Below, one piece after another: positions 18,792 through 54,361 of a DNA stretch of 64,000 nucleotides. The translations under genes were made by a program, and so were the position numbers. The first letter of the stretch is position 1, and each line of letters opens with the position of its first letter. Location of the stretch: assembly GCA_000004985.1 (NCBI GenBank), contig GG738887.1, one strand, 5' to 3'. The notes under the pieces are model-generated. The model had not been told where the DNA came from. It searched no databases and saw only the letters and a list, made by a program, of their open reading frames with translations. The stretch is from Naegleria gruberi (lineage: Eukaryota).

Positions 18792-20772
18792 ATGGGACAA
18801 ACTGCAAGTACTGATGTGTTTACATCTCGATCTGCTGGAGTACTTAATATCATTCCAGAAAATGTTTGGAAACAACCTGTCCGATTACAAAACACACAAG
18901 TAGATACCAATCCAGTGGAATTTTCATTTGTTGTGGATGAGAATGGAAGAATTCGAGATTCAACCTCACCAGTTGATAAACCGAAAAGAAGGAAAAAGAA
19001 AACTACCCATGCTACCCAACCAGAAACCCAATCAGGCACAACACCAACTTTGGAAAATCAACAAAAACCAAGAGCAAGTCAACCAAGCGAGCATGTACCT
19101 GAATCAGAAATTCAACAACATCAACAACAAAGAAGTCAATCTTCCAAAAAGCGAGTTGCAATCCCAAAAAAGATTCAACCTCTGCCATCCACTACGACAG
19201 CACCACCTACAATACAAGAAGAACCTACTGAGGAAGAACCTGAATCTTTATATCACTCATCAAGTGAATCATCAGTTCAATCATTGGAACCTTCTAATAT
19301 AGATATGGAAAAACACAAAGGACAACAAATATTTGGATTTGGAACCTCTCAACAGAAACTTTCAGATGAATCAGATAATTCTTCATCTGATTTGAAATCT
19401 GCAAGTGATTTGGAGACAAGCCAAGATGGAGAGTTGACTGGAACTCCAAGAAATGATCCAAGACGTGTTGTTATCATTGACTTTGGCCACCAAACTACTA
19501 AGGTGGGTTATTCTGGAGAGGATAGACCTCGTCTCATCATTCCAAGTTGTTATACTGTATCTACAGTTCCTGCTCAATCAGGAGAACCTGCAAAGAAGAC
19601 AATCAAGTTTGGAGGTACCATCTCAAGATTTGACAGTACATGGTTTCTAAAGCATGGAAAATTTTCATTCAAGAGAAATGATCCTGACCAACAGATTTTC
19701 GTTGCCTATCTCAGATACATTTCCAAGGTATTGTTAGATCTCAAGAATGCATTCAGAGGTAAAACAGTCATGATTAGTTTGCCATACCTATTCGGTGAAG
19801 ATAAGGAACAATTGAGAATATTGTGTGAATGCTTCTTCCATGAAAGTGTTCAAGCCAAGAGCTTGTTTTTATGTGGTTGCCCATTATTCTCCTTCCTGAG
19901 TGCTGCTGCTAATCACGTGACAGAGAATAGAACAACAGGTCTCAGTGTAACAGTTGGACATGGTATCTCTGAGATTGTTCCAATTGTTGAGGGTTGTCCA
20001 TTCTCAACATGTGGATCTCATTCGTATGTTTGTGGCTCGTCACAAAGTGAATTTGTGCTCTCCTTGATTAAGAGTGAAGTGCAGAGACAAGGAGAAACTC
20101 TCGATGAAGAGCTTGTCACCTATGAAAATGTTGAAAAGGAAAAGATGGACAATTGTACCTTGGTGAGATCATTTAGAGTGAATAAGAAACATCCAAATGA
20201 GTGCAAAGCCAAGTTCTTTAAAAAGACATTCGAACCAGTGAAGGGAGATATGCTTGTGGTGTTGGATCATCGTTATTTGACTCCTGAGCTATTGTTCACA
20301 CCCAAGATATTTATTAAGGAGGAATTACAACTTGGTGAGGATGGAAAAACTGAATCCGAACCTAACTGGCTTGGAATTGTTGCATTAATTGAGACTTGTC
20401 TCAAGAAGTGTCCAAAAGAATTTCATGAAATTCTACTTTCTAATGTGATTGTTTCTGGAGGCCCAGCTCAAGTCAGGAATTTTTCAGAGGTATGTTTAAT
20501 TTGAAAATTACATAGTATAATTCTAATTTTAAAAGAGGGTAAAGTATCAGCTCAAAAGAAAATGTGACATTATTGTTAATCCTTTATCCGATATTAAGCC
20601 AAACAAGCCACCTTACGACTTGTCTGCATGGTATGGCATGAGTTTTCTATCCTCAGCCATTGATGTTGACAATAGAGAGCTCGATGGATTACATTGCAGA
20701 ATTCTATTGGAAGAAACGAGATTGGAGCATTATTCTCTCGAAGATGTGTTATTGTCGAAAAAATTATGCTAA
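18792..20772 (+). CDS. Actin-related protein (Arp family) with a ~220-aa low-complexity N-terminal extension. Exons 18792..20489 and 20536..20772; intron 20490..20535 (46 nt, GTATGT..TAAAAG).
   Basis: Actin-fold motifs VVIIDFGHQTTKVGYSGEDRPRLIIPS, TTGLSVTVGHGISEIVPIVEGCPF, LSNVIVSGGPAQV. Exon 2 supplies the actin C-terminal-like IIVNPLSDIKPNKPPYDLSAWYGMSFLSS. The track ORF starts at GTG 18759; the first ATG is 18792. Confidence 0.7.
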
Positions 20773-48637: not shown

Positions 48638-51600
48638 ATGTCTGAAAAGCCTGTTGTTGGAGACTATAGCGTCGAGTATTCCAAGTCGAACCGATCAACA
48701 TGTAAATTAACCAACAAAACCATCAAGAAGGACGCGCTTCGTATTGGTAAAATTGTACAGTCGCAATCTTTTGATGGTACCTATCCGATATGGTACAATT
48801 TCGAAGGTAGGTTTTTAACTTGGTGATGATCATCAACATGTTATAATTGTTGCTTTTTTGATCGTACAATATCTTGTTTGGATCACTCTTTATTGCTTTT
48901 ATGTATGATGATATTTGTGTGAATACCTATGTTGTATTATCTTTTATCTTGTGTGGAAAATTAAATCATTTGATGATGATGAATGTGGACGAAACAATCA
49001 CCGATACAGATTGGGCAAAGGATAAGAAACTTGTTAAAGAATTCCAAACAAAATGCAAGAAGGTTCATGGTTTGTCCAAGATTCGTCTCGAAGATCAAGA
49101 ACGTATCAAGAAATTGATGGGACAATCAAGTGATGATGCTAATGGTGCTAGTGATGATAATCTCTCCGAAGAACAAAAGCAAAAGAAGAAGGAATTTGAA
49201 GAGGAAAACAAAAAGATTTGGGAAATTAAAGACAAACTTAAGAAGTTAAAGTCTTTACCATTACTGAGATCAATGCTCTCAGAGAATGATCAAATTGAAA
49301 AGGGAGGTGAAGATTTATTAATTGATAGATGTGCTCTTGGATTATTGTTTGGTAACTTGCCTGCTTGTCCAAATGATGAATGTGAAGATGGATATATGAC
49401 CTTCGCAGGTGGTGTATTTAAATGTAAGTAGTTTTTCACCATTTTCAAAATGTGGTGTTAAAATATCAAATTCTAATACATGTTATCTTCAGGTCATGGT
49501 AAATTACCTTGGGCAAAGTGTGACTACACATTATCTGTTGATGATGCATATGAAAAGGCAAAAGACTGGATTATTCCAGATGATATTGCCGAATCTAAAC
49601 AATTTGAAGATTTTGAATTTAAAAAACACAAAAAATGTAACTTTGCTTTGGATACAACTGTTCGTGCACCTGTTGCCTCTTCAAGTGAAGAAAAGAAAGA
49701 GGAAGAAGAGGAAAAGGAAGAAATTGATCCAGAAAAGGAAAAATTACCACTTGGTAATTTCAAGATTGCTTGCTCTGGTAAATTGAGTATGAAACAAAGT
49801 GAATTGCAAGAAATTATTGAAGAAAATGGTGCTACATTCTTGAAAGATGTTTCAAGTGGTTGTACTCACTTGGTTTGCTCAGAAAGTGAATATGATAAGG
49901 AAACAACCAAAGTTAAAAAAGCCAAGAAACAAGGCGTTTTAATTGTTGATGAAGATTGGATTCACATGTCTGTTGAGAAGGAAAGAAAATTGACAGAAGA
50001 TGAAACAAAGGAATATGTACATTACAATCCTCAAGATAAAAAGAGAAAAAAGGAAGAAACTGAAGAAGAAGAAGGTGAAGGACAAGCAGTTCCAAAGAAG
50101 AAGAAGGTAACCATTAAAGGAAGAGCTGCAGTTGATGAAGATTGTGAAGATGCTGATGTTTTACATGTCTATGAAAAGGGTGATGATATTTACTCTGTAC
50201 ATTTGAACTTGACAGATTTATCTACTGGTGCTAATTCTTACTATGTTGTTCAACTTTTGGAACATGATACTAGAAAGAATTATTATGTATTTAGAAAATG
50301 GGGTAGATTGAATACAAATATTGGTTCAAACAAACTCACTGAATATGGATCTGATTTATCATCTGCCAAATCAGAATTTGAAAATACTTATTATGACAAG
50401 ACTGGTAATTATTGGTATGATAGACACAATTTCCAAAAGAGACCTGGTAAATTCTTACCAATTGATGTTGACTATGGTTCAGATGAAACTGATTTGGATA
50501 AGTTACAATCAGAAATGAAGAAGGATTATAAGGGTAAATTGCATCCAGAAATTGCCAACTTGGTCAAATTAATCTTTGACGTTCAAACAATGAAGCAAAC
50601 ATTGAAAGAAATTGAAATTGATACTGAAAAGTTACCTCTTGGTAAATTGAAAAAGTCACACATTTCAAAGGGTTATGAAGTGTTAACAGAAATTCAAAAT
50701 CTCATTAAGAGTGTTCGTGAAAAGGAGAAGGAAGCAGGTGTATTTATGGAAGATGATCCACCAGCAACATCTTCAGTTGATACAACCACAACTGCCACTC
50801 CTTCATCATCAGTTGATGCCACTTCTGCTCCAGTTGATAGTTCAAGTGCTACTCCTTCTGCAACTCCTTCATCATCAGCTGATGTCGCTTCAAGTGCACC
50901 TGCTGCTGTTGTTGAAAAACCTAAGAAACCTAAAACTTCAATTCATCAACAATTCAAACAACAATTCCTCACCCTCTCCAACAAGTTCTATACCATCATT
51001 CCAACTTCAAATCCAGAAATCATTGATGATGAAGATGCTTTGAGTGCAAAGGTTAAGATGATTGAAGCTTTACAAGAAATGGAAATTGCCACCTCACTCT
51101 TGAAGAAGGATGACGAAAGTGAAGAAGATCCATTAGATGGATACTATAAGAAGTTAAAGACTCACCTCGAACCACTCGGCAAGGATAGTGACATGTTCAA
51201 GATGGTTGACACTTATTTGCAAAATACTCACGCCTCTACCCATCGTGAATTCTCACTTGAATTATTGGATGCCTTTGAAGTTGACCGTGAAGGAGAAGGT
51301 GAAAGATTTAAGAAGTATGAGGATTTACACAATCGTAGATTATTGTGGCACGGAAGTAGAGTTTCAAACTTTTGTGGTATCCTTTCTCAAGGTTTGAGAA
51401 TTGCTCCTCCAGAAGCTCCAGTTACAGGGTAAGTCAACTTCGTTCAATATTCTTTTTTAACAATTTTTCTATCCATATTTGTTGTAACTATGTAACATTT
51501 TTATTATTTCAATTTTATAGTTATATGTGTAAGTAGTTTAATTATTTCACTCATTTGTTTAAAACTAAATTGTTAACAGTTGGTAAGGGTATTTACTTTG

Positions 51601-51962
51601 CTGACATGTCTTCCAAGTCTGCCAATTATTGTCGTACTAGTCCAGATCAAAGTACTGGTATTTTACTTTTGTGTGATGTTGCTTGTGGTAATTTATATGA
51701 ACGTTTACAAGCTGACTATATTGAAAAGTTGCCGCGGGGTTATCACTGTTGTTTTGGTCATGGTAGAACTGAACCAAATAATACCATGTGTCAATATATC
51801 CTTGATGGTAAGGTTATGGTGCCACTTGGTACACCATCTGCCTCATTGTTGTACAATAGACATACCTCATTGTTGTACAATGAATTTATTGTCTATGATG
51901 TTGATCAAGTCCAGATTCGTTACTTGCTCAAAGTTAAATTCAATTATGACAGACGTTATTAA
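48638..51962 (+). CDS. Poly(ADP-ribose) polymerase, PARP1-like (~969 aa). Exons 48638..48806, 49010..49423, 49493..51428, 51521..51528 (8-nt micro-exon) and 51580..51962.
   Basis: PARP zinc finger (YSVEYSKSNRSTCKLTNKTIKKDALRIGKIVQSQSFDGTYPIWYNF). PADR1-like Cys cluster. BRCT (FKIACSGKLS...THLVCSE). WGR (YYVVQLLEHDTRKNYYVFRKWGRLN). Catalytic domain (LLWHGSRVSNF..., VTG|YM|FGKGIYFADM, YNEFIVYD). All exon phases are consistent and the total is 2910 nt in frame. Confidence 0.85.
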
Positions 51963-52167: not shown

Positions 52168-54361
52168 TTAACTGTATCCATACATCATATTGACAAAGTT
52201 ATCAATATAGTATTCAGCTCCATTCAAAACTCTGCATGGTTCACATTCTAAATTGTTAGGAGTATTACACCAATAAACTCCAACCATTGGATAGACATTA
52301 CCTCCTCCCCAATTCAATATTGGAAGAACAGCAGAACAAGTAAGGAAGAAACTGACTACTGTCTTGACACTACCATTGGTCATTGGTGGTTTCTTACATA
52401 ATTTAACTAATCTCCACTTGTCCAAATATAATTCAAGAATTGAAGCAACCAAGGCAATCAATGTAATCATTGGGAAGCTAGCCATACCACTGTAAATAAG
52501 GTATTGTCTATAAATGACTTCCAAATATTCTTCAGAGACGTCAAAGTCAGGTCTAACACCTTCGTCACTGCCTTTGTTTCTTCTCTTTGAAATAAAGTAT
52601 GAAACATATGGAACTACCAATTCAATAGCATTGAAAACTAAAAAGTCCAACAACATTTGGATTAAATACTGATTACCCAATGTACGAATAACACATGGAA
52701 CGTTGAATAAACCCTTAGTAAAACCCATAAAGAAGACGTTGAAAAGTTTGAAAAATAAGTACTTGAAAGTATTGTGAGAACGATATCCTGACCATGTGTG
52801 ATGCTTTTCAAAGTTGGTCAAACTGATACAAATCTTCTTCCACAAAAAATTGACCAAACCAATCACAACTGAAATGGCAATAGAAATCAAAGTCAAATAA
52901 AGGGTATTTTGAGAAAATACTGCATCAGCAGCTTCATAGATGGTTGTGAAATTTTGAAGAATTGTAAAACCAACTGTAATGGCACAGGAAATTAACATGA
53001 AGAGAATGAAGAGGGAATAACTGACAAAATATCTTCCCAATCTGTGCCATCTGGTTGTAGATAAATTTTCCTTAATAATATCTGCATCACGATCGAATGC
53101 TTCGGCAAGATCATGTTCTTCCATATCGTATACGTCACGTTTTTGGAAACTTCTTCTGACAATGAACCAATACAATGGTCCAAAACCTAGTGTGGCAACA
53201 ATACATAATCTATAATAGAGTTCATATTAACAACTATTACATTAGAAAATACATACATGTTTGTCGCAACCCACAACCAATAAAGTTGTGGAGAATAACT
53301 GCTACCATATAAGATATCAATAAGACCACCATAGTTAGAGAATTCTCCCTTGAAAAAGTTTGAAAAAGTCTCAATATAAATAGAGTCAATAACAAGATGA
53401 GGAATAAAGTTGATTAATTGGAAAAATAGCAGTAGGGCATTCAAAATGATAATTAAACGACCAAAGTCAAAGTACAGTCTTACACCCAAACCAAAGTGGT
53501 CTTCAATTTCCTTCCATTTACAACAAAATCTCAAACGAATTGAACTAAATTCGTTTTGAACTCTATTAAGGTTAGATCACTCTTATTTGAAATTATTACA
53601 TACTCTTTGATTTCATCCAATCCTAAACCTGTCTTTAACAAGTAAGGTTGACCTTTTGCAGTTCTCATAACTGTATACTTTTTGTGATGTTGTACATGTT
53701 CTTTGGCTTGATTTTTTCCAAGTTGGTCAGTACTTTCAACACGATTCATTTCTGATATTTCCTGTAACCTTTTCTTTTTACCTTGTGCAAAGACATTCAA
53801 GCCAAAAAAGCCAGATTCCCATAAACTTTCCTGATTATCATGCTTGGCATTGCAAATGAATTGAGTACCATAAATATCAGTCATATCCTCATCATTCTTC
53901 TTTGTAAAGGTTGTTTTTGAGGTGAGTGCAATATCATTCACACTCATTTGACTAGATTGACGGTTAGCTCCTTCCGAAGGGGCTTTAGGACCTGATTCGA
54001 TATATCCTGGAGGATATTCATGGGTAGGGTGTTGTTGTCGAGTTACATCTTCTGTTATTGGTGGTGGTACTGTTGTATTATCATTATTATTAGTATTTTG
54101 TTGTAATTCATACTCTTGTGAATGGTGATGATGAGAAGGTTGTACATTATAATTTGGAAGATAACTTGGAACTTGGGCATTGTTTGTGAGTGGAGGATCA
54201 TTCGAAGGATAATAAACATTGGTATTATATGATGTTGTATTGGGAACATAGATATTTTGTTGTTGTGTCCCTGGCATGTAGCTGATATTGTACATTACAT
54301 TTGGATCTTGTGGTTGATAACCACCTGGTTGTTGTGGTGGATACTGATTGTATGGATCCAT
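52168..54361 (-). CDS. TMC (transmembrane channel-like) family membrane protein (~701 aa). Exons 54361..53604, 53562..53257 and 53209..52168; introns 53603..53563 (41 nt) and 53256..53210 (47 nt), both with GTATGT donors.
   Basis: TMC signature-like segment PCVIRTLGNQYLIQMLLDFLVFNAIELV (compare CWETxVGQExYKLxxxD). About 8-10 TM helices. Q/P/Y-rich cytosolic N-terminus. Splicing unites three adjacent track ORFs in one frame. Confidence 0.6.

What the first reader, a model, noticed from the sequence alone, without database searches (positions are those of the whole stretch)
51429..51579. 8-nt micro-exon (51521..51528, TTATATGT) supplies the invariant YM of the PARP catalytic motif
Exon 3 of the PARP gene ends ...CCA GTT ACA GG|GTAAGT. 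The catalytic motif [14 protein letters not shown] then resumes only at 51580 (TT GGT AAG GGT ATT TAC TTT GCT GAC). Only one reading keeps the frame and reproduces [15 protein letters not shown] exactly: a 92-nt intron (..TTTATAG), then an 8-nt exon TTATATGT, then a 51-nt intron (GTAAGT..TTAACAG). Both flanking introns have consensus GTAAGT donors and pyrimidine-rich AG acceptors. Micro-exons this small are rare and need special splicing definition, and this one sits in the active-site loop of a conserved enzyme.
Basis: partly seen in the sequence, partly recalled or inferred. Interest (0 to 1): 0.7.

Follow-up and report, generated by a model that had tools for sequence, protein, structure and literature searches.

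The report
Annotated 8-nt micro-exon in Naegleria PARP1
The 8-base exon is real at the sequence level and is needed to make an intact PARP1-type enzyme in the amoeba Naegleria gruberi, but the public 2010 gene model already contains it, and tiny exons inside catalytic motifs are a known phenomenon.

Summary
Exon 3 ends at 51428 (…CCA GTT ACA GG). A 92-nt intron follows (GTAAGT…TATAG), then the 8-nt exon TTATATGT (51521-51528), then a 51-nt intron (GTAAGT…AACAG). Exon 5 starts at 51580. Splicing gives …[21 protein letters not shown]…, which aligns without a gap to human PARP1 (E 1e-77).

There are 45 stop-free in-frame GT/GC-AG paths through this region. Only this one restores GYMF, and it scores at least 17 bits higher on Pfam PARP than any alternative tested. 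The chance of such an arrangement is about 8e-5.

The window is Naegleria gruberi NEG-M. My five-exon, 969-aa model is identical to the public protein XP_002673922.1 / D2VPS6, so the micro-exon is already annotated.

The micro-exon is not conserved. N. fowleri and Willaertia magna code [10 protein letters not shown] continuously and instead share an intron 20 nt downstream (IYF|ADM) that N. gruberi lacks. The micro-exon therefore looks specific to the N. gruberi lineage.

I found no transcript evidence with these tools. RNA-seq project PRJEB23822 would settle it.

Verdict: a genuine, most likely constitutive micro-exon. It is ordinary in kind and already in the databases. The one modestly interesting point is local intron turnover.

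The parts
48638..48806 (+). Exon 1 of the PARP1-type gene (ATG at 48638; ends in phase 1 after ...WYNFE). It encodes the first part of the zf-PARP-like domain.
   Evidence: The junction position is shared with N. fowleri and W. magna.
48807..49009 (+). Intron 1, 203 nt, GTAGGT...ATACAG.
   Evidence: This AG is the only acceptor available in the interval. The position and phase are shared with N. fowleri and W. magna.
49010..49423 (+). Exon 2 (rest of zf-PARP, PADR1_N).
49424..49492 (+). Intron 2, 69 nt, GTAAGTAG...CTTCAG (FK|CHGK, phase 1).
   Evidence: Shared with N. fowleri.
49493..51428 (+). Exon 3 (PADR1 zinc ribbon, BRCT, WGR, PARP_reg with a low-complexity insert, and the first half of the catalytic domain). 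It ends ...APPEAPVT + GG.
51429..51520 (+). Intron A, 92 nt, GTAAGTCA...T-rich...TTTTATAG. It sits in phase 2, inside the Gly codon of VTG.
   Evidence: It is absent from N. fowleri, W. magna and two other heterolobosean-like loci.
51521..51528 (+). The 8-nt micro-exon TTATATGT. It supplies the third base of the Gly codon, the Tyr and Met codons, and the first base of the Phe codon. These correspond to human PARP1 Y889 and M890, by counting from H862.
   Evidence: The resulting protein is identical to XP_002673922.1.
51529..51579 (+). Intron B, 51 nt, GTAAGTAG...AACTAAATTGTTAACAG. It sits in phase 1, inside the Phe codon.
   Evidence: It is absent from N. fowleri and W. magna. A plant PARP1 gene has a phase-0 intron 1 nt upstream.
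51580..51962 (+). Exon 5: (F)[17 protein letters not shown]...YNEFIVYD...NYDRRY, plus the TAA stop.

Best explanation
This is a genuine internal coding micro-exon of the Naegleria gruberi PARP1-type gene (XP_002673922.1).

Shown: two short U2-type GT-AG introns of 92 and 51 nt, both with the consensus GTAAGT donor, bracket 8 nt. Those 8 nt carry the Tyr-Met of the donor-site loop ...[15 protein letters not shown].

Shown: inclusion is obligatory for an active enzyme, because every other outcome truncates the protein before the catalytic Tyr and Glu.
- Skipping the micro-exon gives VTGW-stop.
- Retaining intron A gives VTG-stop.
- Retaining intron B gives VTGYMCK-stop.

Inferred: in a genome with short introns each intron is recognised as a unit (intron definition). 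Eight nucleotides cannot hold 3'-splice-site factors and U1 at the same time, so the two introns are probably removed one after the other. The micro-exon would first be fused to one large neighbouring exon.

Inferred from a three-species comparison: the arrangement arose in the N. gruberi lineage. Two introns were gained 8 nt apart, and the ancestral IYF|ADM intron 20 nt downstream was lost.
For: - Sequence and frame.
- Full domain set on the spliced protein (zf-PARP, PADR1_N, BRCT, WGR, PARP_reg, PARP; 3.3e-70).
- Gapless alignment to human PARP1 catalytic domain across the junctions, E 1e-77.
- Unique motif-restoring path among 45 in-frame paths.
- Best Pfam score by at least 17 bits.
- Chance about 8e-5.
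- Identical DNA in an independent contig of the same species.
- Model identical to the public N. gruberi protein.
- YM present in 24 of 27 PARP1-like homologues.
- Consequences of mis-splicing read from the sequence.
- Intron map of three species.
- Plant micro-exon literature describing the size problem and competition between flanking introns: (PMC8831610).
Against: - No transcript, EST or RNA-seq junction was available. Three protein searches found no transcript-derived N. gruberi fragment spanning the junction.
- The public model may have been built by homology, so it is not independent proof.
- The micro-exon is not conserved in N. fowleri or W. magna, so there is no comparative support for it as a unit.
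- The order of intron removal and the branch sites are inferred only.
- Intron B has a weak polypyrimidine tract.
Confidence: 0.9

Rival explanations
1. The micro-exon is real but is used as a switch. Regulated skipping or retention of a flanking intron would produce premature-stop transcripts, which lowers PARP output (unproductive splicing).
For: All three mis-splicing outcomes give an immediate stop. An 8-nt exon is intrinsically hard to define. Exon skipping and intron retention have been detected in N. gruberi transcriptomes in general (PMC6142364).
Against: There are no transcript data for this gene. Both donors are perfect GTAAGT, which argues for efficient constitutive use. No conserved or significant RNA structure lies across the region (z = 0.05). 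The arrangement is absent from sister species, so any such regulation would be very recent.
Confidence: 0.1
2. A different in-frame splice path is used, giving a PARP with a divergent loop. Examples are a single intron 51421-51536 or 51421-51587, or a 2-nt exon at 51534-51535.
For: Forty-four other stop-free in-frame GT/GC-AG paths exist.
Against: These paths use non-consensus donors (GTTACA, GCTCCA, GTTTAA) while leaving two perfect GTAAGT sites unused. They delete or replace conserved residues and score 17-52 bits lower on Pfam PARP.
Confidence: 0.03
3. The gene is a pseudogene disrupted by a 143-nt insertion, and the YM-coding octamer is a coincidence.
For: None beyond the absence of transcript data.
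Against: The chance of the octamer with its splice dinucleotides is about 8e-5, or about 3e-7 with GTAAGT. All five exons are open. The H-Y-E catalytic residues and all domains are intact. The sequence is the same in a second isolate, where the few differences leave the reading frame open.
Confidence: 0.02
4. It is a sequencing or assembly artefact of the reference genome.
For: None.
Against: An independent ENA metagenome contig (L001) carries the identical 151-nt interval.
Confidence: 0.01

Closest known systems
Public gene model XP_002673922.1 / EFC41178.1 / UniProt D2VPS6_NAEGR, 'poly(ADP-ribose) synthetase', Naegleria gruberi NEG-M
   Same: The 969-aa sequence is identical to the five-exon model built here. 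Under GT/GC-AG rules that protein can only be obtained by including 51521-51528.
   Different: I could not read the record's CDS join coordinates or its evidence type. No paper found discusses the micro-exon.
Plant ultra-short coding micro-exons (1-15 nt), such as the 9-nt exons inside the AP2 domain (VYLG) and the glycosyl hydrolase 32 / invertase motif (PMC8831610)
   Same: In both cases a tiny internal exon flanked by GT-AG introns encodes the core of a conserved functional motif. Both are easily lost by ORF-style or automatic annotation. The ENA ORF calls P0003 and P0038 lose [11 protein letters not shown] in just this way.
   Different: The plant examples are conserved across land plants. 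This one is absent from the sister species N. fowleri and W. magna. Its length, 8 nt, is not a multiple of three, so skipping shifts the frame.
Animal neuronal micro-exons (3-27 nt, SRRM3/SRRM4-regulated)
   Same: Very short exons that need help beyond ordinary exon definition.
   Different: The animal exons are alternatively spliced, mostly frame-preserving, deeply conserved, and lie within long introns. Here the introns are 92 and 51 nt, inclusion appears obligatory, and no regulator is known. This comparison rests on general knowledge and the abstracts.
Human PARP1 catalytic domain (for example PDB 6m3i, 5ds3, 4dqy)
   Same: The sequence LLWHGSR...[37 protein letters not shown] is the same except at the three dotted stretches, where human PARP1 has TTNFA for VSNFC and V for S. 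The H-Y-E triad is present.
   Different: The Naegleria protein has a single zf-PARP domain that has lost three of its four zinc ligands. It also has a roughly 75-aa low-complexity insert in the regulatory helical domain.

Membership tests
Spliceosomal coding micro-exon (internal exon of 15 nt or less) | Internal exon of 15 nt or less, bounded by a canonical AG acceptor and a GT donor. | tested here: met
   The sequence reads TATAG|TTATATGT|GTAAGT at 51521-51528.
Spliceosomal coding micro-exon (internal exon of 15 nt or less) | Inclusion is required to keep the reading frame and the conserved protein sequence. | tested here: met
   It is the only one of 45 in-frame paths that restores GYMF. 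It gives a gapless PARP1 alignment and the best Pfam score. Skipping gives VTGW-stop.
Spliceosomal coding micro-exon (internal exon of 15 nt or less) | Both junctions are seen in transcripts. | not testable with these tools
   No N. gruberi transcript-derived protein spanning the junction is in the protein collection. RNA-seq project PRJEB23822 exists.
Spliceosomal coding micro-exon (internal exon of 15 nt or less) | The micro-exon and its flanking intron positions are conserved in related species. This is typical of the class but not strictly defining. | tested here: not met
   N. fowleri (L002, L004) and W. magna (L003) encode [10 protein letters not shown] without either intron. L006 and L007 are intronless here.
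U2-type GT-AG spliceosomal intron (introns A and B) | GT donor matching the GTAAGT consensus, a YAG acceptor, and a length within the range of the gene's other introns. | tested here: met
   Both donors are GTAAGT and the acceptors are TAG and CAG. The lengths are 92 and 51 nt, against 203 and 69 nt for introns 1 and 2.
U2-type GT-AG spliceosomal intron (introns A and B) | A recognisable branch site 10-40 nt upstream of the acceptor. | tested here: inconclusive
   Only loose candidates were found by eye: GTAAC at 51484-51488 and 51492-51496 in intron A, and ACTAAA at 51564-51569 in intron B. No Naegleria branch-site model was available.
PARP1 clade (Clade 1B of Citarelli et al. 2010) | Catalytic domain with the H-Y-E triad, preceded by the WGR and regulatory (PRD) domains. 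| tested here: met
   Pfam hits are PARP 3.3e-70, PARP_reg 7.3e-38 and WGR 6.7e-17. LWHGSR, GIYFAD and YNEFIVYD align to human PARP1. A Naegleria protein is placed in Clade 1B in PMC2964712.
PARP1 clade (Clade 1B of Citarelli et al. 2010) | N-terminal zinc fingers with CCHC ligands, plus PADR1 and BRCT. | tested here: inconclusive
   PADR1_N and BRCT are present, along with one zf-PARP domain. That domain keeps only the first Cys; C24 is T, H53 is I and C56 is D relative to human Zn1.

The most novel reading that the evidence does not exclude
The micro-exon is evolutionarily young. After the split from the N. fowleri lineage, two introns were inserted only 8 nt apart in the catalytic core of an essential-type enzyme, and the ancestral IYF|ADM intron 20 nt downstream was lost.

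A single event could have done both, for example reverse splicing into the mRNA followed by cDNA-mediated gene conversion of the 3' end of the gene. If so, this would be a datable natural case of micro-exon birth by intron gain, rather than the usual picture of ancient conserved micro-exons.
Probability: 0.4. Interest if true: 0.45.

Novelty: already known. Interest (0 to 1): 0.25.

Why it matters
For annotation, this is a clean example of how an exon too small for ORF- or alignment-based callers decides whether an enzyme looks intact. ORF calls on an environmental contig of the same species lose [11 protein letters not shown] and split the gene in two.

For biology, the instance adds little. 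The exon is already in the public N. gruberi model, and micro-exons inside catalytic or binding motifs are well documented in plants and animals.

The only point that might repay follow-up is evolutionary. Three heterolobosean PARP1 genes have three different intron arrangements within the same 48 nt. This locus is therefore a compact test case for intron gain, loss or relocation, and for how a short-intron spliceosome copes with an 8-nt exon.

Tried and rejected
- **Alternative splice paths.** All GT/GC-AG one- and two-intron paths between 51380 and 51620 were enumerated.
- **Intron duplication or an 'introner' origin.** No pair of the gene's four introns is more similar than shuffled controls (best pair I2 vs IB, 41 of 500 shuffles as good). 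Neither intron has another copy in the 64-kb window.
- **RNA structure looping out the micro-exon.** A 10-nt perfect complement exists between 51457-51466 and 51567-51576, but the fold of 51415-51595 is no more stable than shuffles (z = 0.05).
- **Closer relatives to date the introns.** The metagenome scan returned only relatives of 56% identity or less. The protein searches returned only N. gruberi itself, N. fowleri-type sequences and W. magna.
- **Transcript-derived proteins spanning the junction.** None were found with queries of three lengths. The look-up of the public protein's contig was not on record.
- **Ancient shared intron positions.** The Lingula PARP1 intron (APV|TGYM, phase 0) and the Phalaenopsis intron (GYM|FGKG, phase 0) lie 5 nt and 1 nt from introns A and B. 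They are not at the same position or phase, so there is no exact match.
- **A missing exon inside intron 1.** I first suspected that intron 1 (48807-49009) hid a missing zinc-finger exon. The alignment to human Zn1 shows the annotated junction is right and the zinc ligands are simply substituted.
- **Literature.** No paper links Naegleria with micro-exons. The PARP family survey that includes Naegleria does not discuss introns.

Full report
**What is in the sequence.** The finding's coordinates are exact.
- On the + strand, an open frame running from 49493 ends ...CCA GTT ACA GG at 51428 and is followed by GTAAGT.
- The interval 51429-51520 is 92 nt and ends TTTTATAG.
- 51521-51528 is TTATATGT.
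- 51529-51579 is 51 nt, from GTAAGTAG to GTTAACAG.
- 51580 begins TT GGT AAG GGT ATT TAC TTT GCT GAC ATG.

Joining the three pieces gives GG|T TAT ATG T|TT, which reads ...[21 protein letters not shown]....

**The whole gene.** There are five exons: 48638-48806, 49010-49423, 49493-51428, 51521-51528 and 51580-51962. The introns are 203, 69, 92 and 51 nt. Their donors are GTAGGT, GTAAGT, GTAAGT and GTAAGT, and all four end in AG. The CDS is 2910 nt, giving 969 aa.

**Is it more than chance, and is it the right reading?** I enumerated every one- and two-intron path with GT or GC donors and AG acceptors between 51380 and 51620. Forty-five paths are in frame and free of stops.
- On Pfam's PARP catalytic model it scores 238.9 bits. 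The next best path (an absurd 2-nt exon) scores 221.5. The single-intron alternatives score 213.4, 202.7 and 186.8.
- The spliced catalytic domain aligns to human PARP1 structures at E 1e-77, with no gap from LHNRRLLWHGSR through [15 protein letters not shown] to SKSANYC.
- In 300,000 shuffles of the 151-nt interval, an AG-NTAYATGT-GT arrangement arose 25 times (8e-5). With a GTAAGT donor the estimate is about 3e-7.
- GTAAGT itself is under-represented in the window: 11 copies on the + strand against about 22 expected. Three of those 11 are donors of this gene.
- Within the PARP1-like homologues retrieved, the dipeptide is YM in 24 and YR in 3 of 27. It is near-invariant rather than invariant.
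- Counting from H862 of the human sequence (my own numbering from the known motif, not a tool result), the two residues correspond to Y889 and M890. These lie in the loop that lines the NAD+ site.

**Organism and prior knowledge.** The best full-length relatives are Willaertia magna (67%) and Naegleria fowleri (66%). Six long ORFs from elsewhere in the window are exact matches to Naegleria gruberi NEG-M RefSeq proteins on a 508,457-bp scaffold, so the window is N. gruberi NEG-M.

The 90% cluster that contains an environmental ORF fragment (P0003) also contains XP_002673922.1 / EFC41178.1 / D2VPS6_NAEGR, named 'poly(ADP-ribose) synthetase', 969 aa. That sequence is identical to my five-exon model. 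Only one canonical splice path yields that protein, so the public model must already include the 8-nt exon.
- A PARP family survey places a Naegleria protein in the PARP1 clade but does not discuss gene structure (PMC2964712).
- No paper in the library connects Naegleria with micro-exons.
- Ultra-short coding micro-exons are well described elsewhere. One study identified 2,398 micro-exons of 15 nt or less across ten plant species, including 9-nt exons in the AP2 and glycosyl hydrolase 32 motifs. Its authors argue that such exons are too small for simultaneous assembly on both flanking introns (PMC8831610).

**Independent DNA, but no transcript.** An ENA metagenome contig (L001) is 99.1-99.8% identical to the window and identical over the whole micro-exon interval. 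The sequence is therefore real.

ORF-style gene calls on that contig illustrate the annotation hazard. One call ends ...APVTG-stop and the next begins MSSKS..., so [11 protein letters not shown] is lost.

I found no transcript-derived N. gruberi protein across the junction with queries of 969, 293 or 118 aa. The public protein's contig was not on record for look-up. Transcript confirmation remains open. N. gruberi RNA-seq exists as PRJEB23822 (PMC6142364).

**Comparative gene structure.** I reconstructed the exon chains that exactly reproduce the annotated N. fowleri and W. magna proteins.

| Intron position | N. gruberi | N. fowleri | W. magna |
|---|---|---|---|
| WYNFE\|D, phase 1 | yes | yes | yes |
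| FK\|CHGK, phase 1 | yes | yes | no |
| IAP\|PEAP, phase 0 | no | no | yes |
| Intron A, inside the Gly codon of VTG, phase 2 | yes | no | no |
| Intron B, inside the Phe codon after YM, phase 1 | yes | no | no |
| IYF\|ADM, phase 0 | no | yes | yes |

- N. fowleri and W. magna encode ...[11 protein letters not shown] continuously.
- The IAP|PEAP and IYF|ADM introns leave W. magna with a 48-nt exon. The N. gruberi micro-exon sits exactly in the middle of the equivalent block (20 + 8 + 20 nt).
- Two more distant heterolobosean-like loci (L006, L007; 42-44% identity) have no intron in this region.
- By parsimony, introns A and B were gained and the IYF|ADM intron was lost in the N. gruberi lineage. 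With only three species, repeated loss of older introns cannot be excluded.
- As a check for ancient positions, a brachiopod PARP1 has a phase-0 intron at APV|TGYM and an orchid PARP1 has a phase-0 intron at GYM|FGKG. These lie 5 nt and 1 nt from introns A and B and match neither position nor phase. In such intron-dense genes a near miss is not surprising.

**Mechanism.** Shown: both flanking introns are short and AT-rich (21-22% GC) and have perfect GTAAGT donors and YAG acceptors.

Shown from the sequence: every failure mode truncates the enzyme before the catalytic Tyr and Glu.
- Skipping gives VTGW-stop.
- Intron A retention gives VTG-stop.
- Intron B retention gives VTGYMCK-stop.

Inferred from general splicing knowledge: with 92- and 51-nt introns, recognition is across the intron. 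Eight nucleotides cannot hold 3'-site factors and U1 together, so the introns are probably removed sequentially.

I looked for aids to this and found none.
- The introns show no similarity to each other.
- Neither has another copy in the window.
- The region has no significant RNA structure. A 10-nt complement between the two introns does not raise stability above shuffles (z = 0.05).

Branch-site candidates (GTAAC twice in intron A, ACTAAA in intron B) are eyeball guesses only.

**Verdict.** It still lacks direct transcript evidence.

In kind it is an ordinary micro-exon, and as an instance it is already in the databases, so I score interest low (0.25). The residual interest is the local intron turnover. 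Three related amoebae have three different intron arrangements within 48 nt of a catalytic motif, and N. gruberi's version appears recent.

Noticed in passing
window 48638-48806 and 49010-49120 (residues 1-95): The single zf-PARP domain has lost three of the four zinc ligands of human PARP1 Zn1. C21 is kept, C24 is T, H53 is I and C56 is D. The same substitutions occur in N. fowleri and W. magna. This looks like a zinc-less 'zinc finger' in heterolobosean PARP1.
   Followed up: partly
window about 50750-50930: A Ser/Thr/Ala-rich low-complexity insert of about 75 aa splits the PARP regulatory helical domain into two Pfam stretches. Its length differs between the NEG-M window and the environmental contig L001. 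N. fowleri and W. magna have unrelated low-complexity inserts at the same place.
   Followed up: partly
L003 4867-4914 (Willaertia magna) versus window 51409-51599: W. magna has a 48-nt exon ([16 protein letters not shown]) between two 55-nt introns. The N. gruberi 8-nt exon lies exactly at its centre (20 + 8 + 20 nt). This is probably coincidence, but it is unexplained.
   Followed up: partly
L017 about 20440-20545 (Phalaenopsis PARP1); L016 10887-11323 (Lingula PARP1): The orchid gene has a phase-0 intron between M and F of GYM|FGKG, 1 nt from N. gruberi intron B. The brachiopod gene has a phase-0 intron at APV|TGYM, 5 nt from intron A. Both are near misses rather than shared positions.
   Followed up: partly
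L002 4910-5192 (N. fowleri IYF|ADM intron): The 283-nt intron contains an internal direct repeat (CACTTTTCTCACTTGGCTTTCTCTTGAATTTT occurs twice). This suggests the intron grew by tandem duplication.
   Followed up: no
L001 142-2037 and 2211-2567: Prokaryote-style ORF calls on an environmental N. gruberi contig split the PARP gene at the micro-exon (P0003 ends APVTG-stop, P0038 starts MSSKS). This shows how such exons disappear from metagenome protein catalogues.
   Followed up: yes
whole window, both strands: The hexamer GTAAGT is under-represented (11 on the + strand and 8 on the - strand, against about 22 expected per strand). This is consistent with selection against cryptic donors in a genome that relies on a strong donor consensus.
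   Followed up: no
window 52200-53200 (- strand) versus L002 5625-7552: The downstream neighbour of the PARP gene differs between species. In N. gruberi it is an anoctamin/TMC-like gene (as called on L001). In N. fowleri it is an XRN 5'-3' exonuclease gene. Local synteny is therefore not conserved.
   Followed up: no
window 51582-51587: A cryptic donor-like GTAAGG lies 3 nt inside exon 5 (TT GGT AAG GGT), within the conserved FGKG codons. It must be ignored by the spliceosome.
   Followed up: no
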